Positions 1,933 to 52,171 of a stretch of 64,000 nucleotides of DNA are shown one piece after another (position 1 is the first letter of the stretch; every line of letters starts with the position of its first letter). A program made the position numbers and the translations under genes. The notes below the pieces were generated by a model. That model was not told the DNA's origin and did not search any database. It worked only from the letters and a program-made list of their open reading frames with translations. Source of the DNA: Actinomycetota bacterium. GTDB lineage: Bacteria > Actinomycetota > Actinomycetes > JBDIAW01. The DNA is taken from contig JBDIAW010000004.1 in NCBI GenBank assembly GCA_039812585.1, positions 10,824 to 74,823 of the forward strand. Reading direction: 5' to 3'.

Positions 1933-3195
1933 GTGTCCATTCAGGAACACTCGCAGGGTAAAAGCGCAACCAACAGCCCTCTGGGGCCATCATGGCTCGA
2001 TAAACTGTGCCCACGGGAGCGCATAGAGATAACGCACATACAAGGGGCAGTGGCCGTGGCCGAAAAAACCGGAATCGACAAGGCGGAGAAATCCTCCACC
2101 GCGAAATCAGCGGTGTCTCACAGCCTGTCCACCGAGGAATTGTTGCGCTCCACGTTGGCAGTTCTGGCCCCTGGCACAGCACTTCGCGATGGATTGGAGC
2201 GCATTCTGCGAGGGCGCACCGGGGCGCTGATCGTTCTGGGTATTGACGATTTGGTGGAGTCCCTAGCCACGGGTGGTTTCACGGTGAACGTGGCGTTCAG
2301 CGCCACCCGACTGCGCGAGCTGGCCAAAATGGACGGCGCGATCATCGTGGACGAGACGATTAGCCGTATCCACCAGGCGGCGGTGCAGTTGGTGCCAGAC
2401 CCCTCCATCGCCACCGACGAGTCCGGCACCAGGCATCGCACTGCGGAGCGGGTCGCCAAGCAAACCGGCCGACCGGTGATCTCGGTGAGTAAGTCGATGC
2501 ACATCATCGCGGTCTATGTCAACGGCCGACGCCACGTGCTCGAGGGCACCGGCTCGCTGCTCTCGCGCGGTGGCCAAGCCTTGGCCACCCTGGAGCGGTA
2601 CAAGAAACGCCTGGATGAGGTGTCCTCCACCGTTGCGCTGCTGGAGGTGGAGGACCTGGTCACCGTGCGGGAGGTGTGCACCCTGGCCCAACGTCTGGAG
2701 ATGGTGCGCCGCATCGCCACAGAGATCGAGGGGTACCTGTTGGAGCTGGGCGAAGATGGCCGCCTGTTGGCCTTGCAGCTGGAGGAGTTGATGGCCGGGG
2801 TCGACTTTGATCGGGAGTTGATCACTCAGGATTATCTTCCGCTAGCCTGGGAGCGCGCCGGAGCCGCCGGCGACCACCTGCAGGTGATGGCGGCTTTGAG
2901 CTCCACTGACTTGTTCGATCTGCCGGCAATCGCCTCCGTCTTGGGGTTCCCCGCCGGCGAAGGCTTGGACTCCCCGGTCATCCCTCGTGGCTACCGGGTA
3001 CTGGCCCGCATCCCCCGCCTGCCGCGCCACATTGCCGACCGACTCATCGAGCACTTCGGCAATGTGCAGAAGCTACTGGCTGCTACCAGCGACGACCTGC
3101 AGACCGTGGAGGGTATCGGCGAGAGTCGAGCCCGCACCATCCGCGACGGCCTCACCCGCATCGCCGACCCCGGCTATCCCGAGCGCTACGCCTAA
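1933..3195 (+). CDS. disA: DNA integrity scanning diadenylate cyclase DisA
   Basis: DGA and RHR cyclase motifs, C-terminal HhH, follows radA; true start may be GTG at 2050 or 2056. Confidence 0.96.
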   Translation: MSIQEHSQGKSATNSPLGPSWLDKLCPRERIEITHIQGAVAVAEKTGIDKAEKSSTAKSAVSHSLSTEELLRSTLAVLAPGTALRDGLERILRGRTGALIVLGIDDLVESLATGGFTVNVAFSATRLRELAKMDGAIIVDETISRIHQAAVQLVPDPSIATDESGTRHRTAERVAKQTGRPVISVSKSMHIIAVYVNGRRHVLEGTGSLLSRGGQALATLERYKKRLDEVSSTVALLEVEDLVTVREVCTLAQRLEMVRRIATEIEGYLLELGEDGRLLALQLEELMAGVDFDRELITQDYLPLAWERAGAAGDHLQVMAALSSTDLFDLPAIASVLGFPAGEGLDSPVIPRGYRVLARIPRLPRHIADRLIEHFGNVQKLLAATSDDLQTVEGIGESRARTIRDGLTRIADPGYPERYA

Positions 3196-16210: not shown

Positions 16211-16533
16211 GGTACCGGGCATTGGTGCTCACCAGGGCTTGCGCTGACGTAGAGGTAGCGCTTCCGGTGCACCGGCCGTACTCAACCAGCCACCGGGGTT
16301 TCCCCACGCACACTCGCGCCCCCTTGAGCTTGGTGGCTCACCCAGCAGTGCCGGGGCTACCCACCAACAGCAGCGAGATTACTGCTGCCGTAAACCGACC
16401 CTGACGGGTGAGTCTCATTTTTGGTGCGGACAGGCCCCGTGCACCAAGGCTCCAACAGGCAGAAAACTCCCGATCAGTTGCCAGCGACATAGCATGGCGG
16501 TACTCCCCTTGCCGCCCGCCGAGAGGCCCCGCC

Positions 16534-18117
16534 GTGACCAAGTCGCCTGCCCACGCCCAAACTCCAACCCCCGACTACCCCCTGCAAGGGGTGCTGGACC
16601 GCTACCTCGCGGCCGCCCACAGCAGCGGCCAGCCGCTCGACCCTGCCGCTACCGCGTTCTTCGCCCAGCTGGCCACCCTGCCCCAGGAGGTCGCCCGCCC
16701 CATCGTGCAGGAGCTTCACGATCAGCGCACCACCCTCAAGTTGATCGCCAGCGAGAACTACTCCAGCCTGGCCACGCAAGCCGCCATGGGCAACCTGTTC
16801 ACCGACAAGTATGCGGAGGGCTTCCCCGGCCACCGTTTCTACGCCGGCTGCGACAACGTGGACACCGTGGAGGCCCTGGCCGCTCAAGCTGCCACCAGTC
16901 TGTTCGGAGCCGACTATGCCTTTGTTCAGCCCCACTCCGGAATTGACGCCAACCTGGTGGCGATGACCGCGATCCTCAAGCAGCGGGTGGAGACTCCCGC
17001 CCTGGACCATCTGGGGCTGAAAAACGCTAGCGCTGCCGATGGGCGCACGTGGGAGCAGATCCGTCAGGAACTCATGAACCAACGGCTCCTGGCGATGGAC
17101 TACTACTCCGGTGGGCATCTCACCCACGGGTACCGGATGAACGTTTCCTCCTGGATGCTGCAGGCGCACAATTACACGGTCGACCCGCAGACCAAACGTC
17201 TGGATATCGACGCGATCCGGGCCCAACTACATGACGTGCGGCCCCTGATTTTCCTGGTGGGCTACAGCGCCTATCCACGCGCCATCAACTTTGCCCACAT
17301 GCGAGAGCTGGCTGACGAAGTGGGGGCCACTTTCATGGTGGACATGGCTCACTTCGCCGGTCTGGTCGCTGGGAAGGTGTTCACCGGCGACTACAACCCA
17401 GTGGCACATGCCCATGTGGTGACCTCCACCACCCACAAAACGCTGCGCGGGCCCCGCGGAGGCATCGTGCTGGCCACCAGCGAGTATGCGGATGTGATCG
17501 ACAAGGCCTGCCCAACGATCCTGGGAGGTCCCCTGCCCCACGTGATGGCCGCCAAGCTGGTGGCTTTGCGGGAAGCTTCCACGCCGGAGTTCGCCGACTA
17601 CGCCCGACGCATCGTCACCAATGCCCAAGCCCTGGCCGAGGGTCTGCAGCAACACGGCATCTCGGTGCTGACAGGGGGTACCGACAATCACCTGGTCTTG
17701 GCTGATGTTTTCGACACTTATGGCCTGTCCGGGCGCCAAGCGGAAACCGCGCTGCGCAGTGTGGGTATCACCTTGAACCGCAACTCGTTGCCCTTCGACG
17801 CTAACGGCCCATGGTTTACCTCTGGCCTGCGCTTGGGTTCTGCAGCCCTGACTACCCGTGGTATGGGGCCAGAGGACATGCGCGAGATTGGGCGCATCAT
17901 CGCCTCGGTATTGGCCACGGTGAAGCCCTTGGGTCGCAAAGTGGCCGCGCACACCCCCGACGGGCGGGAGCTACCTGGCGCCAAGTACGAGGTTGGCGAC
18001 CAGTCGGTGCTCGATTCCGCCGGCGCCGCAGTGCGCGACCTGCTGGCTGACTACCCGCTCTACCCCAGCATCGACCTGGACTGCCTGGCCGACACTGCCT
18101 TGGCCGTGCAGGCTTGA
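16534..18117 (+). CDS. glyA: Serine hydroxymethyltransferase (long actinobacterial form)
   Basis: LIASENY, KYAEG, GGHLTHG, PLP-lysine motif TTHKTLRGPRGG. Confidence 0.97.
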   Translation: MTKSPAHAQTPTPDYPLQGVLDRYLAAAHSSGQPLDPAATAFFAQLATLPQEVARPIVQELHDQRTTLKLIASENYSSLATQAAMGNLFTDKYAEGFPGHRFYAGCDNVDTVEALAAQAATSLFGADYAFVQPHSGIDANLVAMTAILKQRVETPALDHLGLKNASAADGRTWEQIRQELMNQRLLAMDYYSGGHLTHGYRMNVSSWMLQAHNYTVDPQTKRLDIDAIRAQLHDVRPLIFLVGYSAYPRAINFAHMRELADEVGATFMVDMAHFAGLVAGKVFTGDYNPVAHAHVVTSTTHKTLRGPRGGIVLATSEYADVIDKACPTILGGPLPHVMAAKLVALREASTPEFADYARRIVTNAQALAEGLQQHGISVLTGGTDNHLVLADVFDTYGLSGRQAETALRSVGITLNRNSLPFDANGPWFTSGLRLGSAALTTRGMGPEDMREIGRIIASVLATVKPLGRKVAAHTPDGRELPGAKYEVGDQSVLDSAGAAVRDLLADYPLYPSIDLDCLADTALAVQA

Positions 18118-18156
18118 CCCTTCGTGAGTTGAACCCCTGACCCTTCGCGAGTTGAA
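18115..18156. repeat. Two 19-bp direct repeats with 23-bp period
   Basis: TGACCCTTCG(T/C)GAGTTGAA at 18115-18133 and 18138-18156. Confidence 0.8.
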
Positions 18157-18484
18157 GCACAGATGATCGCGAGGTAAGCGGGGGGAGTCTCCACAGATGA
18201 GGTGGATTGAGGGTCGCTTAGCACTGCAGTACCGTCCTGTATCGACGTGAGCGAACTTATCGCTACGATCCTGAGCGCCCATTGGTCATCCTGCCCCGTT
18301 GACCAACTGTGGAGCCGCTACGCCTGAGGGGCACGAGTAACACGGCCCGAGCAGAACCCCCTGACTCGGCGCAGGCAGCATTTCGCGCATGAGTGGCACA
18401 CAGCCGCCAAGCGTGGGCGGACGGACAGGTGCGCAGAGTGGAGCGAAGACCGCTACGGTCCGACCGGGGCGGCGTCAGTCGGCG

Positions 18485-19105
18485 CTAATTTCGCGCTTGC
18501 AGTAAATCGTCAACCGTGGCAGCACCTTCGCGGTAACGACGGCCAATTTCTGCGGTGCACACATCCATGACTTGCTGCACCAAACGCCGATCGTGGGAGA
18601 TTCCCGCCTCCAGTTCGTGCAGTTTGGCTACCGCAGCGGCCAGTTGCTCGTCGCTCAACCCTGAGGAGTTGGAGATGTCCACGTCGGCCACCACTTTCTC
18701 CACGTGACGACGGCGTTCATCCAACCGCGAGGGCTGCATGGAGATGAAGCGAGCGTTGGAGGGGTTCGTGCTGCGCGTGGTGCCCTCAGACAGCACAGAG
18801 GTCAAGGTAGAGACCAGGTCGTGTTCAGGGGCGCCACCACGCCGAGCTGCCTCAGCGTTGACGAGGTCCAATCGACCCTGAATGAGCCGGCGCAGATAGG
18901 ACAGGTCGGTCTCCTCCTGTTCGGCGTCCTTGCGGCGAGCGCGCAACTCCTCCATGGGCAGATCCTCAAGGTGCTCAGCAAAGCCCTCCCCGAGCACGCG
19001 GTCTATGCGCCGCCGCCCTCCTGGGATGGCATTGGTGGCTTCCTCAGCCAAGCTATGGCGCTCGTTCATCACTTCAGCTCCCCCTGCTTCAGGACTCTGG
19101 GGCAT
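18485..19105 (-). CDS. rsiG: RsiG/AmfC-family c-di-GMP-binding anti-sigma factor
   Basis: Two E-x3-S-x2-R-x3-Q-x3-D motifs (ETDLSYLRRLIQGRLD and EAGISHDRRLVQQVMD); close to dtd/ygfZ as in Streptomyces; GGAGG RBS before ATG 19105. Confidence 0.88.
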   Translation of the reverse strand: MPQSPEAGGAEVMNERHSLAEEATNAIPGGRRRIDRVLGEGFAEHLEDLPMEELRARRKDAEQEETDLSYLRRLIQGRLDLVNAEAARRGGAPEHDLVSTLTSVLSEGTTRSTNPSNARFISMQPSRLDERRRHVEKVVADVDISNSSGLSDEQLAAAVAKLHELEAGISHDRRLVQQVMDVCTAEIGRRYREGAATVDDLLQARN

Positions 19106-19198
19106 GGTTTCCTCCAACTCCCACATTGCCTGGGCGCCAAGGCGCCACCTGCCGATAACATCTTGTCACGATTTGTCACAGCACGTTATCTGCCTGCC

Positions 19199-19225
19199 CT
19201 ATCGGCACACGTTCCTCTAAGTTGA
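19199..19225 (-). promoter_or_regulatory. sigma28/WhiG-type promoter upstream of rsiG
   Basis: Minus strand reads TCAA-N15-GCCGATAG; canonical sigma28 is TAAA-N15-GCCGATAA. Confidence 0.6.
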
Positions 19226-19619
19226 GTCCACCGAGAGCGACAAAGATCACCGTACAGTCATCTAGTCAATGCAAAGCGTAACCGGTGGAACGGTTAAGGG
19301 CAAAGTAGGGCAAAATATTTTCCCGTTTCTTACCTCCAGGACTTGGTTGCTGCCACTTCAAGATTTTTTTCATCATTGATGATATTTCGGTCGCAGGGCC
19401 AGGAAGTGCTGCGACGAACCTATCGGAGCGTGCCTGATTCGTGGCTGATTGCTCACAGTAAGCGAAGTTAGAGATCCACATAAACTGCCGGGCGCATGAA
19501 TACGTCGCCAACGCTCACCCCGAACGCAACGACCCTGCCTGGGCCAACCCCACCAAGCTCAGACTTTGACCCTCTTAAGCCCCCTACCATTCTGGCCTAG
19601 GGTCACAAGATCGACTGAC

Positions 19620-19715
19620 ATGCATCTGAAACGACCTGGCGCACCGGACCCCACGGCCACGGGTCGCCGAACTATCGATGACACATTTGCGAAGTTGCGA
19701 AGGGGGAATGAATGA
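19620..19715 (+). CDS. 31-aa ORF coupled to the HicB-like gene (possible hicA remnant)
   Basis: MHLKRPGAPDPTATGRRTIDDTFAKLRRGNE; TGA overlaps the downstream ATG (ATGA). Confidence 0.35.
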   Translation: MHLKRPGAPDPTATGRRTIDDTFAKLRRGNE

Positions 19716-20134
19716 ACGAGAAGGTTTACCGCGTGGAATGCCGTCGCTACGGCTCCTGGTGGCAAGTCACAGTGCCGCAGGTTGAGCAGGCCTCTACCCA
19801 TGCCCGTCGTTTGGACCAGGTCGATGCTCGTGCCCGAGAGATGCTGGCTGGGCTACTCAAGATGCCCGAGGACAGTCTGCGACTGGACGTCCAACCTCAG
19901 TGGGAAGGTGATATCGCCACCCAACTGGACGAGTTGTACGCAGTGATGCGGGCCGCAGAACGGGCAGCAGACCTCAAACGCTCCACGGCGGTCATGCTGG
20001 CTGGCAAAGGCTTCACCCTGCGCGACATCGCCACCGCACTGGGCTGCACCCACCAACGAGTGCAGCAATTGATACAGGAATACCATCAGCGCCAACACGC
20101 CAAAACCACCAGCAAAAAAGGTGAAGCTGCCTAA
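19712..20134 (+). CDS. HicB-like antitoxin with C-terminal HTH
   Basis: YRVECRRYGSWWQVTVP...ARRLDQV.AR.REM N-domain; GFTLRDIATALGCTHQRVQQL HTH. Confidence 0.7.
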   Translation: MNEKVYRVECRRYGSWWQVTVPQVEQASTHARRLDQVDARAREMLAGLLKMPEDSLRLDVQPQWEGDIATQLDELYAVMRAAERAADLKRSTAVMLAGKGFTLRDIATALGCTHQRVQQLIQEYHQRQHAKTTSKKGEAA

Positions 20135-20190
20135 AACAACGCCTTCATCTGTGTGCCCCCACCAGCCTCGGTGGGGGCACACTGGTGTTT

Positions 20191-20619
20191 ATGCGAGCCA
20201 TCGTGCAACGAGTGACCCACGGCAGCGTCACGGTCGAGGGGCAGGTGGTGGGAGCTATCGACGAACCCGGGCTATGCGTGCTGTTGGGGGTGACCCACAG
20301 CGATGGGCCACCCCAGGCCGTGGAGATGGCCCGCAAGCTGGCCAATCTGCGCCTGTTGCATGAGGAGAAGTCAGTCCTCGACGTAGGTGCCCCCGTATTA
20401 GTCATCAGCCAGTTCACGGTCTATGGCAACGCTGCCAAAGGCCGTCGACCGTCCTGGGCGGCGGCGGCACCCGGCCCCCATGCCGAACCTTTGGTGCAGG
20501 CCGTGGTCGGCGGCTTACGAGAGCTGGGTCTGACTGTGGCTACGGGAGTCTTCGGCGCTCGTATGCAGGTTGGGTTAGTCAACGACGGCCCTTTCACCCT
20601 CATCCTGGACGTGGGGTGA
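20191..20619 (+). CDS. dtd: D-aminoacyl-tRNA deacylase
   Basis: MRAIVQRV, SQFT, GRRPS, GVFGARMQV.LVNDGPFT. Confidence 0.96.
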   Translation: MRAIVQRVTHGSVTVEGQVVGAIDEPGLCVLLGVTHSDGPPQAVEMARKLANLRLLHEEKSVLDVGAPVLVISQFTVYGNAAKGRRPSWAAAAPGPHAEPLVQAVVGGLRELGLTVATGVFGARMQVGLVNDGPFTLILDVG

Positions 20620-34440: not shown

Positions 34441-34550
34441 AAGCCCTCGGCCTGCCCACCTGGTCCTGCAGGCAGGAACGTTGACCCTGCCTGCATGACC
34501 GTTTGGGCGGATAGCCTGATCCTCTCGCGCACCGCCTGGAAGGATGGCCC

Positions 34551-35633
34551 ATGCCTGCACACTCCCCCTTGATCCGCACCGCGTTGGCCAGCGCTGCCGC
34601 AGTAGCCGGCACGGCCTGGGCCCTGCGGCAACGGCGCACTCGAATCAGCCTGCAGGGGTGCAGGGTGTGGGTGGTCGGAGCCTCCAGCGGCATTGGAGCG
34701 GCCCTGGCCAAGGAGCTGGTGAACCGGGGGGCCTGCGTGGCCATCAGCGCCCGACGCGAGCGCCTGCTGCGGGAGGTCGCTGGCGAAGCGATGCTGGTGG
34801 TGCCGTTGGATATCACCGACGATGCCGCCACCGACGCGGCGGCCGCGCGGGTGCGCCAGCACTTGGGAGGGCTGGACCTGGTCATCCACAGCGCCGGCCT
34901 CTCCCAGCCGATGGACGTGGAGCACTGGGATCGCTCCCTGTTCGATGCCTGTCTAGCCCTCAACCTTGGGGGACTGAACAGCCTGCTGGGGGCAGTGCTG
35001 CCGATCCTGCTGGAGCAAAAGCATGGGCGCCTGGTGGGCATTGCCTCACTGGCCGGGTGGCGGGGCTTCCCCGGCGCCCAGGCCTACACCGCCAGCAAGG
35101 CTGCCCAAATCAACCTGTTGGAGGGATTGCGTGCGGCTCTGCTGCCCCACGGGGTGGCAGTCACCACCATCTGCCCCGGGTTTGTGCGCTCGGAGATGAC
35201 CCAGCGCAACGACTTCCCCATGCCGCTGTTGCTGGAGGCCGACCGGGCAGCAGCGTTGATCTGCGACGGTCTGCAACGCCAACAGGCGCAGATCGTGTTC
35301 CCCGCCACCGCAGGGCTGGCGATGCGGGCTGCTCAGATGGTGCCCACCGGGGTGTGGTCGTGGGCGCTAGCAGCGCTGGGTTTGCAAGCCCAGGCGCATC
35401 GCAAAGCCGACGTGGATGGCCCCCCGAACGTGGATTCTGCTGCCACCGCCACCGTGTCGCGCCTGCCGACCCAGTCGGGGGGTTCAGGTCCCGGCCTGTC
35501 TGCCTTCAACCTGCGCTCCAACTCTGCCTGCACCTACGCCACGGTGACCGCCCTGCCCTTGGGCGAGCGGGCTGCTGCTCTGGCCGATTACGTTCCCTTG
35601 CCGCTGGATTACGCTGCTCGCCCTCCCTCCTAA
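34551..35633 (+). CDS. Short-chain dehydrogenase/reductase
   Basis: VVGASSGIG, SAG, YTASK, ICPGFV.SEMT. Confidence 0.9.
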   Translation: MPAHSPLIRTALASAAAVAGTAWALRQRRTRISLQGCRVWVVGASSGIGAALAKELVNRGACVAISARRERLLREVAGEAMLVVPLDITDDAATDAAAARVRQHLGGLDLVIHSAGLSQPMDVEHWDRSLFDACLALNLGGLNSLLGAVLPILLEQKHGRLVGIASLAGWRGFPGAQAYTASKAAQINLLEGLRAALLPHGVAVTTICPGFVRSEMTQRNDFPMPLLLEADRAAALICDGLQRQQAQIVFPATAGLAMRAAQMVPTGVWSWALAALGLQAQAHRKADVDGPPNVDSAATATVSRLPTQSGGSGPGLSAFNLRSNSACTYATVTALPLGERAAALADYVPLPLDYAARPPS

Positions 35634-35656
35634 CCGTGGGGATTAGCGTGGCTGGG

Positions 35657-37036
35657 GTGACGACCAGCCTGCTCTGGGTACGCCGAGACCTCCGCCTGCA
35701 TGACCACCCTGCCCTGTGCGCAGCCGCCCAGGAGGGTGCGGTGCTGCCCGTGTTCGTGCTGGAACCCACCCTGCTGCAGGAGTCTCCGGTGCGCACTCAC
35801 GCCCTGCTGAGCGCCCTGCATCACCTGCAGGAGCTCTACGACGGGGCGTTGGTGTTCCTGCAAGGCCCTGCACAGCAGGCCATCCCGCAGCTGGCCGCCC
35901 AGGTCAAAGCCTGCAGCGTGCACATCAGCGCGGAGCCCCAGCCCTGGGGCTACCAGCGCGATCGGGAGGTGGAGCAGGGGTTGTCCCTGCTGCCCACACC
36001 GGTACCGCTGGTGCGCACCGGCTCCCCCTACGCGGTCACGCCGGGCAGGGTGCGCACCGGCGGGGGGAGGGGCTACCGGGTGTTCACCCCGTTCAGCAAA
36101 GCCTGGCGCGATCACGGTTGGCCTCGCCCGGCACAGGCACCGACGGGTCTGCGGTGGCATCGCGGTGTGGAAAGCCTCCCCCTGCCCCCACTTCCCGACC
36201 TACCCGTCTCGTACGTGCAGCCAGTCGACTCCGGGCAGCAGAGGGCGCTGCTGCAGTGGCACCACTTCCTCCACGAGGGCCTGCCCGACTACGAGCAACC
36301 CCGTGGCCGCCTCGATCAACCTGGTACCACCGGGCTGTCAGTGCACCTGAAGTTTGGCAGCATCCACCCCCGCACTCTGCTGGCCGACCTGGGTCCTCTG
36401 CTGGAGCGCACCCCCGGCGCCGGGCGGCTGCTCACTCAGCTGTGCTGGCGGGAGTTCTACGCCGATGTGCTCTGGCATCACCCTGACTCCGCCTGGAGCG
36501 ACCTGAGCCCTGCGCTGGCGGGGATGCGCTACGCCGATCCTGACACCGATCCTGATGTGGCTGCCGGGGTGCAGGCGTGGGAGCAGGGGCGCACCGGGTT
36601 CCCCGTCGTGGATGCAGGCATGCGCCAGATGGTGGCCACCGGCTGGATGCACAACCGCGCCCGCATGATCACAGCGAGTTTTCTCACGAAGGATCTGCGG
36701 GTGTGGTGGCCGCACGGGGCACGGGTTTTCCTGCGCCATCTGCACGATGGTGACCTGGCCAACAACAACCACGGGTGGCAGTGGGTGGCCGGCACTGGCA
36801 CCGATGCCGCACCGTATTTTCGGGTGTTCAACCCGGTCACGCAGGGGCAGCGCTACGACCCTGATGGGGCATACGTCCGTCGCTGGGTGCCTGAACTGGC
36901 CCATCTGGGCGGCGCGGCGGCCCATGAGCCCTGGAAGCATCCACAGGGATACCAGCATGGTTACCCTCCACGCATCCTTGACCATGCCCAAGCCCGACAG
37001 GAGGCTCTGGCTGCCTACCAGGCAGCGCGCACTTAA
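35657..37036 (+). CDS. phr: Class I CPD photolyase
   Basis: LWVRRDLRLHD, LSVHLKFG, WREFY, GRTGFPVVDAGMRQ, WMHNRARM, NNHGWQW. Confidence 0.95.
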   Translation: MTTSLLWVRRDLRLHDHPALCAAAQEGAVLPVFVLEPTLLQESPVRTHALLSALHHLQELYDGALVFLQGPAQQAIPQLAAQVKACSVHISAEPQPWGYQRDREVEQGLSLLPTPVPLVRTGSPYAVTPGRVRTGGGRGYRVFTPFSKAWRDHGWPRPAQAPTGLRWHRGVESLPLPPLPDLPVSYVQPVDSGQQRALLQWHHFLHEGLPDYEQPRGRLDQPGTTGLSVHLKFGSIHPRTLLADLGPLLERTPGAGRLLTQLCWREFYADVLWHHPDSAWSDLSPALAGMRYADPDTDPDVAAGVQAWEQGRTGFPVVDAGMRQMVATGWMHNRARMITASFLTKDLRVWWPHGARVFLRHLHDGDLANNNHGWQWVAGTGTDAAPYFRVFNPVTQGQRYDPDGAYVRRWVPELAHLGGAAAHEPWKHPQGYQHGYPPRILDHAQARQEALAAYQAART

Positions 37037-48744: not shown

Positions 48745-48770
48745 GAACCTGGTGGCAGGTCAGAGGCGTA
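48745..48770 (+). promoter_or_regulatory. ECF-type promoter of sigma gene 1
   Basis: GAACCT-N16-CGTA ending 66 nt before the ATG; same motif before sigma gene 2. Confidence 0.75.
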
Positions 48771-48835
48771 CCCCCCATGAGCCTTACTGTTCACCAGCCC
48801 CAAGACGGCTGAGCCAAACCTTCAAGGAGTCGTGC

Positions 48836-49357
48836 ATGAACGAAGAGCAATTCCGTGCGTTCTACGAGGAATCTGGACCAGCCCTGGTGGGTCAGCTTTA
48901 CGCCATGATTGGTGACGCGGCAGAGGCGCAAGATTGCGTCCAAGAAGCCTTCATCAAGGCATGGACGCACCGGGAGAACTTAGAAACGCAGGGTAATCCG
49001 ACAGCATGGGTGCGCACTACCGCCTATCGCCTCTCAGTGAGCCGGTGGCGCCGGGCCAGCAGCTTGTTGCGCGCCTACCAGCGCCACGGAGCGACTCCCC
49101 ACGTCGAGCCGCCCAATGAGCTCAGCAGCGATGTGGCCGCCGCAATGCGCCAACTTCCCCTGCCGCTGCGACAGGTGTTAGTCCTGCATTACCTATGCGA
49201 CCTGCCCCTGGAGGAGATCGCCTCTGAAACGGGCCTAGCCCTAGGCACCGTGAAGTCACGCCTGCACCGGGCCCGGGAACAGATGGCGCTGGTCATGGGC
49301 CCTGAACACCGACCCAATCTGGCCGTTCGCACCTTGCCCACCGCCTGCGCCTTTTAA
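48836..49357 (+). CDS. ECF sigma factor (SigE-like), copy 1
   Basis: AQDCVQEAF region 2, LALGTVKSRLHRAR region 4; AAGGAG RBS. Confidence 0.93.
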   Translation: MNEEQFRAFYEESGPALVGQLYAMIGDAAEAQDCVQEAFIKAWTHRENLETQGNPTAWVRTTAYRLSVSRWRRASSLLRAYQRHGATPHVEPPNELSSDVAAAMRQLPLPLRQVLVLHYLCDLPLEEIASETGLALGTVKSRLHRAREQMALVMGPEHRPNLAVRTLPTACAF

Positions 49358-49385
49358 CTGCGACCGTTACTGCGAAAGGAACCTC

Positions 49386-50426
49386 ATGTCCGTCCATCTC
49401 GATGAATCATTCGACCCGGAGCAAACCTCTCGGATGCAACAGGGCCTTTCCCACATGAGCCGCAGCGTGCAGCCACAGCTCATGCCCGCGCCTTTGCTGG
49501 CCCACAAGGCTCGGCAGCGCCAGGTGCACCGTTGGCAGGCCAGCGCAGTCTTAGCTGTCGCCGCTATTGCCTTGGTGACCGTAGGAACTGTGCAGCTGAC
49601 CGATCGCAACCAGCAACAGGGCACGATCTATGCCAACACTCCCCCCGCTTCGCAGACTGCGCAGCCAGAGCGGACCACTGCTTCCACCACCAGCCCATCC
49701 ACGACCACCTCCTCAAGCCAGGCCCGGGCGGGAACTTCTTCACCCACCAGTGCTGTCCCCACTGTGCCGCGCAGTTCGTCGGTCAGCAGCCCCTCCACCA
49801 CCGTGAAATCCACCACACCGGCGCGTTCCCCCTCTATTCCTGCCGGTTTCCGCCTGCCCCACGAGGGTGACCCTGCCTGGAAAGTCAACACCAAACCGGC
49901 CTACCTGAGCATGGGCAGCCCCCAGGGGCAACCCACCGTTGCTGTAGAGGCGGCACCGGTGCAGCGCAGCATCATCACCACCACTGCCAAAGGGTGGGAG
50001 GAGGAAACCATTGCGGTGTTCGACAGCCCCGAGAAGGCAATGGAGAAGGTCGCCATGTTTGAACGCTTAGCTACCAGCCCCACAGTGGTCAATGTCAACG
50101 GCATCATGTATAAGCAGCACGAACTGCCTCAACCGCTGCCCAAGAACAGCTACGCCATTACCTACAGCGGCGACTTTCCTCAAACCTCGTGGGACTTCGG
50201 CATGGTCATCATGCGCTCGGAGTGGAACGGCCCAAGTCCCCAGGCAGCAGGGGCAAAGATCGTCGCCTCCGACTACTACTTCGCTGCACAGGTGGGCTCC
50301 ACGCTGGTCATGGTCAGCGGCTACGGTCCCTGGGCCTCTACCGACCACATCCTGCCCACCCCAGAAGCCCGGGATTACTACCAACCTCGCTTACAGGCCA
50401 TGGTGAGTCAACTCTTCCAGCCCTAA
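49386..50426 (+). CDS. Putative single-pass anti-sigma factor, copy 1
   Basis: Short cytoplasmic N-terminus, TM, S/T linker, extracellular domain; directly follows the sigma gene. Confidence 0.7.
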   Translation: MSVHLDESFDPEQTSRMQQGLSHMSRSVQPQLMPAPLLAHKARQRQVHRWQASAVLAVAAIALVTVGTVQLTDRNQQQGTIYANTPPASQTAQPERTTASTTSPSTTTSSSQARAGTSSPTSAVPTVPRSSSVSSPSTTVKSTTPARSPSIPAGFRLPHEGDPAWKVNTKPAYLSMGSPQGQPTVAVEAAPVQRSIITTTAKGWEEETIAVFDSPEKAMEKVAMFERLATSPTVVNVNGIMYKQHELPQPLPKNSYAITYSGDFPQTSWDFGMVIMRSEWNGPSPQAAGAKIVASDYYFAAQVGSTLVMVSGYGPWASTDHILPTPEARDYYQPRLQAMVSQLFQP

Positions 50427-50472
50427 GACCCACCCCCGTCGGAGGGGACTGCAAAAAACCTTCCTCCTGTGG

Positions 50473-50498
50473 GAACCTAGATTGTTGGTGGTGACGTA
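50473..50498 (+). promoter_or_regulatory. ECF-type promoter of sigma gene 2
   Basis: GAACCT-N16-CGTA ending 68 nt before the ATG. Confidence 0.75.
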
Positions 50499-50499
50499 T

Positions 50500-50535
50500 G
50501 CGTAGGCAAGTGTTCTGCAGAGCACTTGCCTACGC
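50500..50535. other. Hairpin between the two sigma/anti-sigma pairs
   Basis: GCGTAGGCAAGTG pairs perfectly with CACTTGCCTACGC (13 bp) and can extend inward. Confidence 0.75.
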
Positions 50536-50565
50536 TTACGGCCGCCAGCCGGCTAGGAGATCCCC

Positions 50566-51132
50566 ATGGATGATGAGCAGTTCCACGACTTTTACGCCGC
50601 TTGCGGGCCGGCGTTAGTCGGGCAGCTTTATGCGATGACGGGGGATGCTGGCCTAGCACAGGATTGTGTGCAGGAAGCATTCATCACGGCCTGGAAACGT
50701 CGAGCCAGTTTAGATCTTGACCTAGGCAACCCCCAAGCATGGGTACGCACCACCGCATGGCGCTACTCTCTGAACCACTGGCGCCGGGCCTCCCGACAGT
50801 TACGCGCCTACCAGCGCCACGGGCTGCCTCCTGATGTCGAGCCTCCCAGCCCGGAGGCGGCCGACCTCTATGCCAAACTGCGCCAATTGCCCACTCCTCA
50901 ACGCCACGTGGTGGTGCTGCACTACTTGTGCGACCTCAGCGTGGAGGACATTGCCGCCGAGACTGGGCTAGCGCTGGGCACGGTGAAGTCACGCCTATAC
51001 CGCGCCAGGGCCGCCCTTGCTGCCCAGCTACGCCCGGCAGCCCCCATCACCTTGCCGGCTCCGGCCGATTCTGAGGAATACCTTCCCGCTTCCAGCCTTT
51101 TGGAAAGGAGACGTCATGCCGCTGCACACTGA
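50566..51132 (+). CDS. ECF sigma factor (SigE-like), copy 2
   Basis: Clear paralogue of copy 1 (GPALVGQLYAM, QDCVQEAFI, LALGTVKSRL shared). Confidence 0.93.
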   Translation: MDDEQFHDFYAACGPALVGQLYAMTGDAGLAQDCVQEAFITAWKRRASLDLDLGNPQAWVRTTAWRYSLNHWRRASRQLRAYQRHGLPPDVEPPSPEAADLYAKLRQLPTPQRHVVVLHYLCDLSVEDIAAETGLALGTVKSRLYRARAALAAQLRPAAPITLPAPADSEEYLPASSLLERRRHAAAH

Positions 51133-52171
51133 TCGCCCCTCCAGCACCCTCACACCCGCTCAAGAGTCCCAGGTGCGTCACAGCCTGAGCCAGGTCAGCG
51201 CGGGAGTGCGCCCCCACCTACGACCCGGCTCCCACCTGGCTGCCACCGTGAACCGGCGTCAGCAACTGCGCGCCTTCACCATCGGGATGCTGGGGATGGT
51301 TGTCCTGGTCAGCGTAGGCCTGACCGCAGCTCAAATGCTGCGTCCTGATGAGGGCAAACCCACCACAGTCGTCGCCAACTCCCCCGGGGTGGGCGCGCCG
51401 ATGAGTAGCGTGGCGGCCTCTCCTGGGGCTGGCACCTCCTCCTCCCCGGCGATGAGCCAGAGCAGCCCGGCGGCGTCCTCCCCCGCATCGAGCAGCAATC
51501 CGCCCTCAGCGAGCTCGCCCAGCTCCACCTCAGTGCAGGCAGCGCTGAGCCATCCCGTGCAGTGGAGCACCGCACCCAGCTCCATGACCTCGGCTCAGCC
51601 TCGCTCCGCACAGCTGCCCTCCACGGCTGCCGAACCCAAGCCGGAAACCCCTCTGCTGCCCGATGAAGGAAAGCCTGGCTGGACTCAGGCCCCTTGGTCG
51701 CGGGCGGATTGCAGCGACAATCACACAGCGACGTTGAGTCAGGCGGTTCGCGGGCAGCGCAGCATCAACTCTGAAGCGCAGGAGTCTTTCACCCGCGAAA
51801 GCGTGGGAATCTTCGCCGACGCAACCTCGGCTCAAGCCTTTCTGGATGACCTGCGTACGCGCAACACCTGTGGAATACGCACTTACGACGCCCAGTCAGG
51901 TACCCACTTCACGGCCCATGCCCTACCGGGTTACGGCGAGGCCAGCCTGCTGTTGCTGCAGTCGTGGTTCAACCAACAACCCGATGGCAACCGCGTCTAC
52001 CCTCCGGGAGGCAGCTACCTGCTGGCTGCCCGGGTCGGGGGCACGGTGGTCCTCGTAGAGGGCTACGGCGAGTGGATCAACTCCATCGACCCCGACCGCC
52101 GCGCGCTGCAAGAGTATGGCGCGATCCTGCAAGTGATGCTCGATCGATTTGGCTCCCTGGACAGCCTGTGA
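51116..52171 (+). CDS. Putative single-pass anti-sigma factor, copy 2
   Basis: Same architecture as copy 1; AARVGGTVVLVEGYGEW resembles AAQVGSTLVMVSGYGPW; AAAGGAG RBS. Confidence 0.7.
   Translation: MPLHTDRPSSTLTPAQESQVRHSLSQVSAGVRPHLRPGSHLAATVNRRQQLRAFTIGMLGMVVLVSVGLTAAQMLRPDEGKPTTVVANSPGVGAPMSSVAASPGAGTSSSPAMSQSSPAASSPASSSNPPSASSPSSTSVQAALSHPVQWSTAPSSMTSAQPRSAQLPSTAAEPKPETPLLPDEGKPGWTQAPWSRADCSDNHTATLSQAVRGQRSINSEAQESFTRESVGIFADATSAQAFLDDLRTRNTCGIRTYDAQSGTHFTAHALPGYGEASLLLLQSWFNQQPDGNRVYPPGGSYLLAARVGGTVVLVEGYGEWINSIDPDRRALQEYGAILQVMLDRFGSLDSL

What the first reader, a model, noticed from the sequence alone, without database searches (positions are those of the whole stretch)
18485..19225. 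RsiG with two intact c-di-GMP motifs appears to be driven by a sigma28/WhiG-type promoter
Seen: both E-x3-S-x2-R-x3-Q-x3-D motifs are perfect, and TCAA-N15-GCCGATAG points at rsiG ~95 nt upstream of its start. Established: RsiG sequesters WhiG-family sigma factors only when c-di-GMP is bound, and the characterised Streptomyces WhiG targets are whiH and whiI. Inference: a FliA/FlgM-like negative feedback loop gated by c-di-GMP, probably controlling motility, pili or sporulation in a non-streptomycete.
Basis: partly seen in the sequence, partly recalled or inferred. Interest (0 to 1): 0.7.

Follow-up and report, generated by a model that had tools for sequence, protein, structure and literature searches.

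The report
RsiG gene with conserved sigma-28-type promoter
[quoted passage not shown] Its few close relatives keep that motif, so the anti-sigma gene is probably switched on by the sigma factor it inhibits, which has not been reported for this pair.

Summary
Window 18485-19105 (minus strand) encodes a 206-aa RsiG: Pfam PF22802 at E=1e-32, PDB 6PFJ chain T at E=6e-28, and a model that matches only the S. venezuelae RsiG chains. Both E-x3-S-x2-R-x3-Q-x3-D motifs are perfect.

TCAA-N15-GCCGATAG, which also reads CTCA-N16-GCCGATAG, lies at 19226-19199, 93 nt before the ATG.

One such match in 64 kb is not significant by itself: 0.79 are expected by chance. What counts is conservation. Five of the six clade loci (62-76% RsiG identity, window included) that retain upstream sequence keep CTCA-N16/17-GCCGAT in front of rsiG, while the spacer and flanks have diverged. 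A sixth locus has GCCTAT. The background rate is 2e-5 per nt. Eighty-seven more distant rsiG loci show no such motif, so the feature is specific to this clade.

A second conserved element lies about 60 nt before the ATG. It looks like a sigma-70-type promoter overlapping a GTCAC-N5/6-GTGAC palindrome, which suggests two promoters.

No RNA data cover the locus. The feedback loop therefore remains an inference. No paper I could search names rsiG as a WhiG target. Verdict: a plausible new variant of a known circuit, of moderate interest.

The parts
18485..19105 (-). rsiG coding sequence (206 aa plus stop), a c-di-GMP-dependent anti-sigma factor of the RsiG family
   Evidence: Pfam PF22802 E=1.3e-32. 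PDB 6PFJ_T/6PFV (S. venezuelae RsiG, deposited as AmfC) E=5.7e-28 over residues 28-202. AF2 model: pLDDT 76.6 overall and above 90 in the two long helices. Its only significant PDB fold hits are the RsiG chains of 6PFV and 6PFJ.
18866..18913 (-). First E-x3-S-x2-R-x3-Q-x3-D c-di-GMP motif (residues 65-80, ETDLSYLRRLIQGRLD), on helix 51-89
   Evidence: Regex match. The columns are invariant in a 22-sequence alignment. The helix is assigned in the model.
18563..18610 (-). Second E-x3-S-x2-R-x3-Q-x3-D c-di-GMP motif (residues 166-181, EAGISHDRRLVQQVMD), on helix 152-192
   Evidence: Regex match, alignment and model.
19111..19115 (-). Ribosome-binding site GGAGG, 5 nt before the ATG at 19105
   Evidence: Read directly from the sequence. 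GAGGAAACCATG is conserved in L001 and L095.
19222..19226 (-). P1 -35 element CTCAA. It reads as TCAA with N15 spacing, or as CTCA with N16 spacing.
   Evidence: CTCA is invariant in all six clade loci that have upstream sequence.
19199..19206 (-). P1 -10 element GCCGATAG, sigma-28/WhiG type. A TSS is predicted near 19193-19190.
   Evidence: GCCGAT is kept in five of six clade loci with a 16-17 nt spacer whose sequence has diverged. The TSS position is an inference.
19184..19189 (-). P2 -35-like hexamer ATAACG. Orthologues have ATGACA, CTAACG, TTGACG and ATTACT.
   Evidence: Anchored comparison of seven loci. Calling it a -35 element is an inference.
19165..19179 (-). Conserved repeat GTGAC-AAATC-GTGAC. 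It is a perfect GTCAC-N5/6-GTGAC palindrome in L001, L007 and L093. Candidate operator.
   Evidence: Within each clade locus the pattern occurs essentially only upstream of rsiG.
19160..19168 (-). P2 extended -10-like TGA-CAAGAT (TGn plus CAnnAT), 18 nt after the -35-like hexamer and 54 nt before the ATG
   Evidence: CAAGAT, CAGGAT, CAATAT, CACTAT and CACGAT sit in the same register across loci. The function is inferred. The consensus sigma-70 scan did not report it.

Best explanation
rsiG of this uncultured activated-sludge actinomycete encodes a standard two-motif RsiG. When loaded with a c-di-GMP dimer, RsiG sequesters a WhiG-family sigma factor.

In this small clade the gene is preceded by two promoter-like modules:
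- A distal sigma-28/WhiG-type promoter, P1 (CTCA-N16-GCCGAT[A/G]).
- A proximal sigma-70-type module, P2 (nTnACn-N18/19-TGnCAnnAT), which overlaps a GTCAC-N5/6-GTGAC palindrome.

Proposed mechanism (inferred). P2 supplies basal RsiG. When c-di-GMP falls and WhiG is released, WhiG-RNA polymerase also transcribes rsiG from P1, so anti-sigma accumulates in proportion to WhiG activity. Because RsiG binds WhiG only with c-di-GMP, this extra RsiG stays inert until c-di-GMP rises again. The regulon is then shut off quickly. This is a FliA/FlgM-style negative feedback gated by the second messenger.

Shown here: the identity of the protein, the presence of both cis-elements, and their clade-wide conservation. 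Inferred: which sigma factor reads P1, where the TSSs lie, and the loop itself.
For: RsiG identity.

P1 matches the published sigma-28/WhiG search criteria, which are TAAA/GCCGATAA with up to 2 mismatches, intergenic, within 200 bp of a start codon (PMC8325347). It is the only such match in the window.

CTCA-N16/17-GCCGAT lies upstream of rsiG, on the rsiG strand, in the window, L001, L007, L093 and L008. L094 carries the variant GCCTAT. Spacer and flanking sequence are unrelated between lineages. The background frequency of the strict motif is 2e-5 per nt over 2.8 Mb, about 0.006 expected per 300-nt upstream region.

The motif stays with rsiG although the upstream neighbour differs: an HTH_23 gene in the window and L001, dtd in L007 and L093, a GCV_T gene in L008.

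The simple scan reports no consensus sigma-70 promoter upstream.

RsiG is reported always to co-occur with a WhiG homologue (PMC13595943).

Earlier notes of this scan record GGDEF/EAL genes elsewhere in this genome (unchecked). GGDEF/EAL genes also lie near rsiG in L093.
Against: - No WhiG/FliA gene was found. tblastn with a WhiG probe, itself validated against 6PFJ_A at E=3e-123, found nothing in the 64-kb window or in the 95 loci then fetched. The rest of the genome could not be searched.
- There is no transcript evidence.
- The motif alone is not significant in the window.
- The clade is small: about four independent lineages, all from metagenomes.
- L094 has a change in the critical CGA core.
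- Eighty-seven more distant rsiG loci lack the motif, and in S. venezuelae WhiG ChIP-seq gave only whiH, whiI and vnz15005. The arrangement is therefore not a family trait.
- The conserved -35, CTCA, matches the consensus reported for WhiG1, which RsiG does not bind.
Confidence: 0.55

Rival explanations
1. P1 is a real sigma-28-type promoter, but it is read by a flagellar-type WhiG1/FliA paralogue that RsiG cannot bind. rsiG would then be an output of the motility sigma factor. That would be cross-regulation, with WhiG1 raising the level of the inhibitor of WhiG2, rather than an autoregulatory loop.
For: The clade-invariant -35 is CTCA with N16-17 spacing. That is exactly the consensus reported for WhiG1 from Actinoplanes missouriensis (CTCA; N16-17; GCCGAACT). 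Read as TCAA, the spacing is N15, typical of true flagellar sigma factors, whereas S. venezuelae WhiG targets use N16. The fifth base is A only in the window and G in the other clade members, so T(A/C)AA does not hold across the clade.
Against: The authors of that study state that the WhiG1 and WhiG2 motifs overlap extensively and could not be separated. It is unknown whether this organism has any WhiG1 or flagellar genes. None is in the window.
Confidence: 0.15
2. rsiG is transcribed only from the proximal sigma-70-type element P2. The conserved CTCA...GCCGAT sequence would be something else: the site of an unrelated sigma factor or DNA-binding protein, or an element of a long 5' leader.
For: P2 and the palindrome keep a nearly fixed distance to the ATG (52-77 nt) in all seven loci. 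The distance of P1 from the ATG varies more: its -10 begins about 100-160 nt upstream. There is no TSS data. The sigma factor has not been located.
Against: The two conserved blocks with a fixed 16-17 nt gap of unconstrained sequence form the signature of a bipartite promoter. They match the sigma-28 consensus at 10 of 12 positions, including the CGA core. The motif has no dyad or direct-repeat symmetry of the kind a typical regulator site would show. Rfam finds no leader RNA family.
Confidence: 0.2
3. The motif is a non-functional coincidence, preserved only by shared ancestry of closely related sequences.
For: The window and L001 upstream regions are 75% identical overall, so conservation between those two says little. 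One match per window is expected by chance.
Against: The upstream regions of L007/L093, L008 and L094 cannot otherwise be aligned with the window. Yet they keep the motif in the same orientation with the same spacing. The expected count per upstream region is about 0.006.
Confidence: 0.07

Closest known systems
Streptomyces venezuelae RsiG-(c-di-GMP)2-WhiG switch (PDB 6PFJ/6PFV; Gallagher et al. 2020, PMC7005675)
   Same: Same protein family and fold, with about 40% identity. Both E-x3-S-x2-R-x3-Q-x3-D motifs are intact, one on each long helix. rsiG is not adjacent to whiG.
   Different: In S. venezuelae, ChIP-seq gave only whiH, whiI and vnz15005 as WhiG targets, so rsiG is not in its own partner's regulon. 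Here rsiG carries a conserved sigma-28-type promoter. The host is an uncultured activated-sludge actinomycete whose DnaK is only about 80% identical to those of Pseudonocardiaceae and Motilibacteraceae.
FliA (sigma-28)/FlgM negative feedback of enteric bacteria and Bacillus SigD/FlgM (from established knowledge, not tested here)
   Same: The anti-sigma gene is transcribed from a promoter read by the sigma factor it inhibits. A second promoter, independent of that sigma factor, supplies basal anti-sigma. The promoter class is the same (TAAA-N15-GCCGATAA).
   Different: FlgM is unrelated to RsiG. It is inactivated by secretion through the hook-basal body (PMC12871210 text). RsiG is controlled by c-di-GMP occupancy, so extra RsiG made through feedback inhibits only when c-di-GMP is present.
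Predicted WhiG regulons across Actinomycetota (Denis et al. 2026, mSystems, PMC13595943; Schumacher et al. 2021, PMC8325347)
   Same: The same promoter consensus and the same logic of feedback. Those studies predict WhiG-dependent promoters in front of DGC/PDE genes and, in some species, in front of whiG itself.
   Different: The searchable text of these papers does not name rsiG as a predicted target. Their supplementary tables were not available. Their query used a fixed 16-nt spacer after a 5-nt -35 element and covered only genera with at least two reference genomes. It would have missed this locus, which has a 15-nt spacer by that count and comes from an uncultured lineage.

Membership tests
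RsiG anti-sigma family | Significant match to the RsiG-like profile (PF22802) and to solved RsiG | tested here: met
   PF22802 E=1.3e-32, 111.7 bits against a cut-off of 27. 6PFJ_T E=5.7e-28. Rubrobacter RsiG 7LQ2/7LQ3/7LQ4 E of about 6e-8.
RsiG anti-sigma family | Two E-x3-S-x2-R-x3-Q-x3-D c-di-GMP-binding motifs (twin-motif type) | tested here: met
   Residues 65-80 and 166-181 match perfectly. The columns are conserved in the alignment of 22 homologues.
RsiG anti-sigma family | Antiparallel helical hairpin carrying one motif on each helix | tested here: met
   The AF2 model has helices 51-89 and 152-192 with pLDDT above 90. The only Foldseek PDB hits with E<=0.001 are the RsiG chains of 6PFV and 6PFJ (prob 1.00, TM 0.70-0.73 by target). 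This is a prediction, not a solved structure.
RsiG anti-sigma family | A WhiG-family sigma factor is present in the same genome, and the two bind in a c-di-GMP-dependent way | not testable with these tools
No WhiG lies in the window or in the 10-kb flanks of the fetched loci. Binding needs biochemistry.
Sigma-28/WhiG-dependent promoter | -35 T(A/C)AA or CTCA, a spacer of 15-17 nt, and -10 GCCGA with an intact CGA core | tested here: met
   CTCAA-N15-GCCGATAG at 19226-19199, checked against the consensus definitions quoted.
Sigma-28/WhiG-dependent promoter | Intergenic, on the gene's strand, within 200 bp of the start codon | tested here: met
   There are 93 nt between the -10 element and the ATG. 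The motif lies in a 606-nt non-coding gap with no conserved ORF.
Sigma-28/WhiG-dependent promoter | Conserved in orthologous upstream regions | tested here: met
   Five of the six clade loci that have upstream sequence match strictly, and one is a variant. The motif is not found in 87 distant rsiG loci, so conservation is confined to the clade.
Sigma-28/WhiG-dependent promoter | A transcription start 6-9 nt downstream of the -10 element, and dependence on the sigma factor | not testable with these tools
   The three metatranscriptome runs of the same study laid no contig on the locus.
FliA/FlgM-type autoregulatory sigma/anti-sigma loop | The anti-sigma gene is transcribed by its own cognate sigma factor | tested here: inconclusive
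   The promoter class fits. The sigma factor has not been identified, and WhiG1 cannot be told from WhiG2 by the motif.
BldD-(c-di-GMP) operator (considered for the conserved palindrome) | TNAC-N5-GTNA box (recalled from Tschowri 2014 and den Hengst 2010) conserved across orthologues | tested here: not met
   The box fits in the window and L001 (TGAC/TCAC-AAATC-GTGA). In L007, L093 and L008 the arms are 6 nt apart, and the central C(A/T)G is absent. Whether the genome has a BldD gene is unknown.

The most novel reading that the evidence does not exclude
The conserved CTCA-type promoter is read by a flagellar-clade WhiG1 sigma factor that RsiG cannot bind. The motility sigma factor would then set the level of the c-di-GMP-armed inhibitor of a second sigma factor, WhiG2. 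That would be a hierarchical two-sigma cascade in which c-di-GMP decides whether activity of one sigma-28 paralogue silences the other. No such wiring has been described for the WhiG1/WhiG2 split.
Probability: 0.12. Interest if true: 0.6.

Novelty: new variant of a known kind. Interest (0 to 1): 0.4.

Why it matters
In the only experimentally studied twin-motif system, Streptomyces, RsiG is treated as a purely post-translational brake. Its level is not known to respond to WhiG.

A WhiG-type promoter on rsiG would add transcriptional negative feedback to the sole known c-di-GMP-controlled sigma/anti-sigma switch. Extra anti-sigma would accumulate while c-di-GMP is low and act only when it rises again, giving fast reset and buffering. 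This predicts different switching dynamics in this lineage.

It would also show that the wiring of this switch, and not only its output regulon, has diversified among Actinomycetota.

The claim is modest. Autoregulated sigma/anti-sigma pairs are the rule elsewhere. The evidence here is comparative sequence only, from a handful of metagenomic contigs.

Tried and rejected
- A regex for sigma-70 region 2, and tblastn with a validated WhiG probe, against the window and the 95 loci then fetched: no hit. whiG is therefore not linked to rsiG anywhere sampled.
- Walking about 3.7 kb beyond the window start found only AP endonuclease, Ppx/GppA, VTT and HAD genes. The lookup at the other end failed.
- Notes of this scan for the same genome record only ECF sigma factors and GGDEF/EAL genes. 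A sequence lookup with the WhiG probe returned only other genomes, where whiG sits next to xerC.
- RNA evidence: three small metatranscriptomes of the same study lay nothing on the locus.
- Rfam on 18000-20300 found nothing. The consensus sigma-70 and terminator scan also found nothing.
- I looked for further CTCA/T[AC]AA...GCCGA sites in the window. The only other hit, at 50935, falls in the ECF sigma/anti-sigma region (48745-52171) rather than in front of a gene. Counts equal the chance expectation.
- A second GCCGATA at 19151-19157 on the plus strand has no -35 element and is not conserved in L001. Rejected.
- The BldD-box reading of the palindrome was rejected at clade level, because the arm spacing varies between 5 and 6 nt.
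- Recurrent GCCGATGAC upstream of distant rsiG genes turned out to be the coding 3' end (..RPPMT..) of a neighbouring gene that looks like a DUF849/BKACE-type enzyme. It is not a promoter.
- No conserved small ORF lies in the 606-nt gap.

Full report
**The gene.** The minus-strand ORF 18485-19126 has two in-frame ATGs. The one at 19105 is preceded by GGAGG (19115-19111), and the sequence GAGGAAACCATG is conserved in the closest orthologues, so the protein is 206 aa.
- It matches Pfam RsiG (PF22802) at E=1.3e-32.
- It matches the solved S. venezuelae RsiG (6PFJ/6PFV chain T, deposited as AmfC) at E=5.7e-28 over residues 28-202.
- It matches the single-motif Rubrobacter RsiG at about 6e-8.

A regex finds exactly two E-x3-S-x2-R-x3-Q-x3-D motifs, at residues 65-80 and 166-181. 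Only 99 of 200,000 shuffles of the protein contain even one. An AlphaFold2 model built on 22 homologues puts each motif on a long, confident helix (51-89 and 152-192, pLDDT above 90). The only PDB fold matches with E<=0.001 are the RsiG chains of the RsiG-WhiG-c-di-GMP complexes.

**The organism.** The window is held at full length by activated-sludge metagenome runs. Its DnaK is only about 80% identical to the best database proteins, which are labelled Pseudonocardiaceae, Pseudonocardiales, Motilibacteraceae or Jatrophihabitantaceae. The window itself is ordinary actinobacterial chromosome: radA, disA, clpC, gpmA, glyA, dtd, ygfZ-like, photolyase, clpB and dnaK. The host is therefore an uncultured, deep-branching actinomycete, not a streptomycete. 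This RsiG belongs to a small clade. Among 5.8 billion proteins only six others exceed 60% identity, and the next best are about 50-54%.

**The promoter motif.** On the minus strand, CTCAA lies at 19226-19222, followed by 15 nt, then GCCGATAG at 19206-19199. There are 93 nt between this and the ATG. The site satisfies the published search rule for WhiG/sigma-28 promoters: TAAA/GCCGATAA with up to 2 mismatches, intergenic, within 200 bp of a start codon (PMC8325347).

Taken alone it is not significant. It is the only such match in the window, but 0.79 are expected by chance. The prior chance of a match in the 200 nt upstream of this one gene is about 0.001.

**Conservation.** Conservation carries the case. 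I fetched the orthologous loci: L001 (76% RsiG identity), L095 (78%, upstream sequence truncated), L007, L008 and L094 (68%), and L093 (62%).
- CTCA-N16-GCCGAT is present upstream of rsiG, on its strand, in the window, L001, L007 and L008.
- L093 has N17.
- L094 has CTCA-N16-GCCTAT.
- The spacer and both flanks are unrelated between lineages.
- The strict motif occurs at 2e-5 per nt in 2.8 Mb of fetched DNA, about 0.006 expected per 300-nt upstream region.
- It stays with rsiG although the upstream neighbour changes: an inserted HTH_23 gene in the window and L001, dtd in L007 and L093, a GCV_T gene in L008.

By contrast, 87 more distant rsiG loci (Motilibacter, Frankiales-like, Nanopelagicales, Kineococcus and others) show no enrichment: 0.16 against 0.07 loose matches per kb, mostly inside the neighbouring coding sequence. 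The element is a derived feature of this clade.

**A second conserved element.** About 60 nt before the ATG, every clade locus has a block of the form g-nTnACn-(18/19 nt)-TGA-CAnnAT. Within it lies GTCAC-N5/6-GTGAC. This is a perfect palindrome in L001, L007 and L093. It reads GTGAC...GTGAC in the window (19179-19165) and GTTAC...GTGAC in L008.

Its distance to the ATG is nearly constant (52-77 nt), whereas P1 lies at more variable distances (its -10 begins about 100-160 nt upstream). I read it as a sigma-70-type promoter (P2) with an extended -10 element, possibly overlapped by an operator. The simple consensus scan does not report it because the -35 element is weak.

A BldD box (TNAC-N5-GTNA, recalled from the literature) fits the window and L001 but not the N6 forms, so I do not file it there. 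Rfam finds nothing in the region. No small ORF is conserved in the 606-nt gap, which is 54% GC against 63% for the window.

It found nothing by tblastn in the window or in the 95 loci then fetched with up to 10-kb flanks.
- A further 3.7 kb beyond the window start, fetched afterwards, holds only genes with other Pfam assignments.
- The literature states that RsiG always co-occurs with a WhiG homologue (PMC13595943). Presence is therefore likely, but it is inferred.
- No transcript data exist.

**Which sigma factor.** Denis et al. distinguish two clades. WhiG1 is linked to flagella, is not bound by RsiG, and has the reported consensus CTCA-N16-17-GCCGAACT. WhiG2 is controlled by RsiG and has T(A/C)AA-N16-GCCGATAA. 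The authors could not separate the two motifs in genomes. S. venezuelae WhiG promoters use N16, and true flagellar sigma factors use N15.

Here the clade-invariant -35 element is CTCA with N16/17. Read as TCAA-N15, the pattern holds only in the window. The promoter is thus at least as WhiG1-like as WhiG2-like. That leaves a cross-regulatory reading open (rival 1).

**Comparison with what is known.** The protein is a member of a known family. The circuit logic, an anti-sigma gene in the regulon of its own sigma factor plus a second promoter, is that of FliA/FlgM. For WhiG-RsiG, however, the searchable literature reports only whiH, whiI and vnz15005 as Streptomyces targets. For other taxa it reports pil and DGC/PDE genes and whiG itself. 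It never names rsiG, though the supplementary tables were not available. I therefore rate this a new variant of a known kind.

**Verdict.**
- Observation: confirmed.
- Interpretation: partly supported.
- P1 is a functional sigma-28-type promoter that gives WhiG-dependent rsiG expression: about 0.55.
- Interest: 0.4.

Noticed in passing
window 19160-19189 (minus strand): A second conserved block lies about 60 nt upstream of the rsiG ATG in all seven clade loci. It has a -35-like nTnACn, an 18-19 nt spacer containing GTCAC-N5/6-GTGAC, then TGA-CAnnAT. It is probably a sigma-70-type promoter and/or an operator.
   Followed up: partly
window 19106-19711: The non-coding gap between rsiG and a divergent HTH_23 gene is 606 nt long and 54% GC, against 63% for the window. 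Several sharply conserved blocks are shared with L001 (for example CTAGGCCAGAATG-TAGGGG and TTTTGCCC-ACTTTGCC). There is no Rfam hit and no conserved ORF. It could hold a small RNA or further regulatory sites.
   Followed up: partly
window 19712-20134 (+): A 140-aa protein with a C-terminal HTH_23 domain is inserted between dtd and rsiG in the window and L001 only. In L007 and L093, dtd abuts the rsiG upstream region directly.
   Followed up: partly
L001 12075-20621; L002; L004: In the closest relative, a CRISPR-Cas locus (Cas3-like helicase, Cas_GSU0053, a Cas4-Cas1 fusion and Cas2) lies just downstream of rsiG. The window has glyA at that position.
   Followed up: no
L093 926-2451 and 5390-6544: GGDEF-EAL, EAL and GGDEF genes lie within 9 kb upstream of rsiG in one clade member. 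None carries the CTCA...GCCGA motif in the stretch fetched.
   Followed up: partly
window 16408-18117 (+) and 34544-37036 (+): The longest ORFs for glyA (569 aa) and for the photolyase (830 aa) extend far upstream of their Pfam domains. The real starts are probably internal, or the photolyase ORF overlaps another gene.
   Followed up: no
L039 6115-9945 and many distant loci: In Motilibacter-, Frankiales- and Nanopelagicales-type genomes, rsiG sits immediately after a gene that looks like a DUF849/BKACE-type enzyme. In L039 a roughly 1,200-aa coiled-coil repeat protein lies on the opposite strand just upstream. This synteny is lost in the window's clade.
   Followed up: no
window 1933-3195 (+): disA, the c-di-AMP synthase checkpoint protein, follows radA at the start of the window. 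So a gene for a different cyclic dinucleotide (c-di-AMP) lies about 15 kb from the c-di-GMP-binding rsiG.
   Followed up: no
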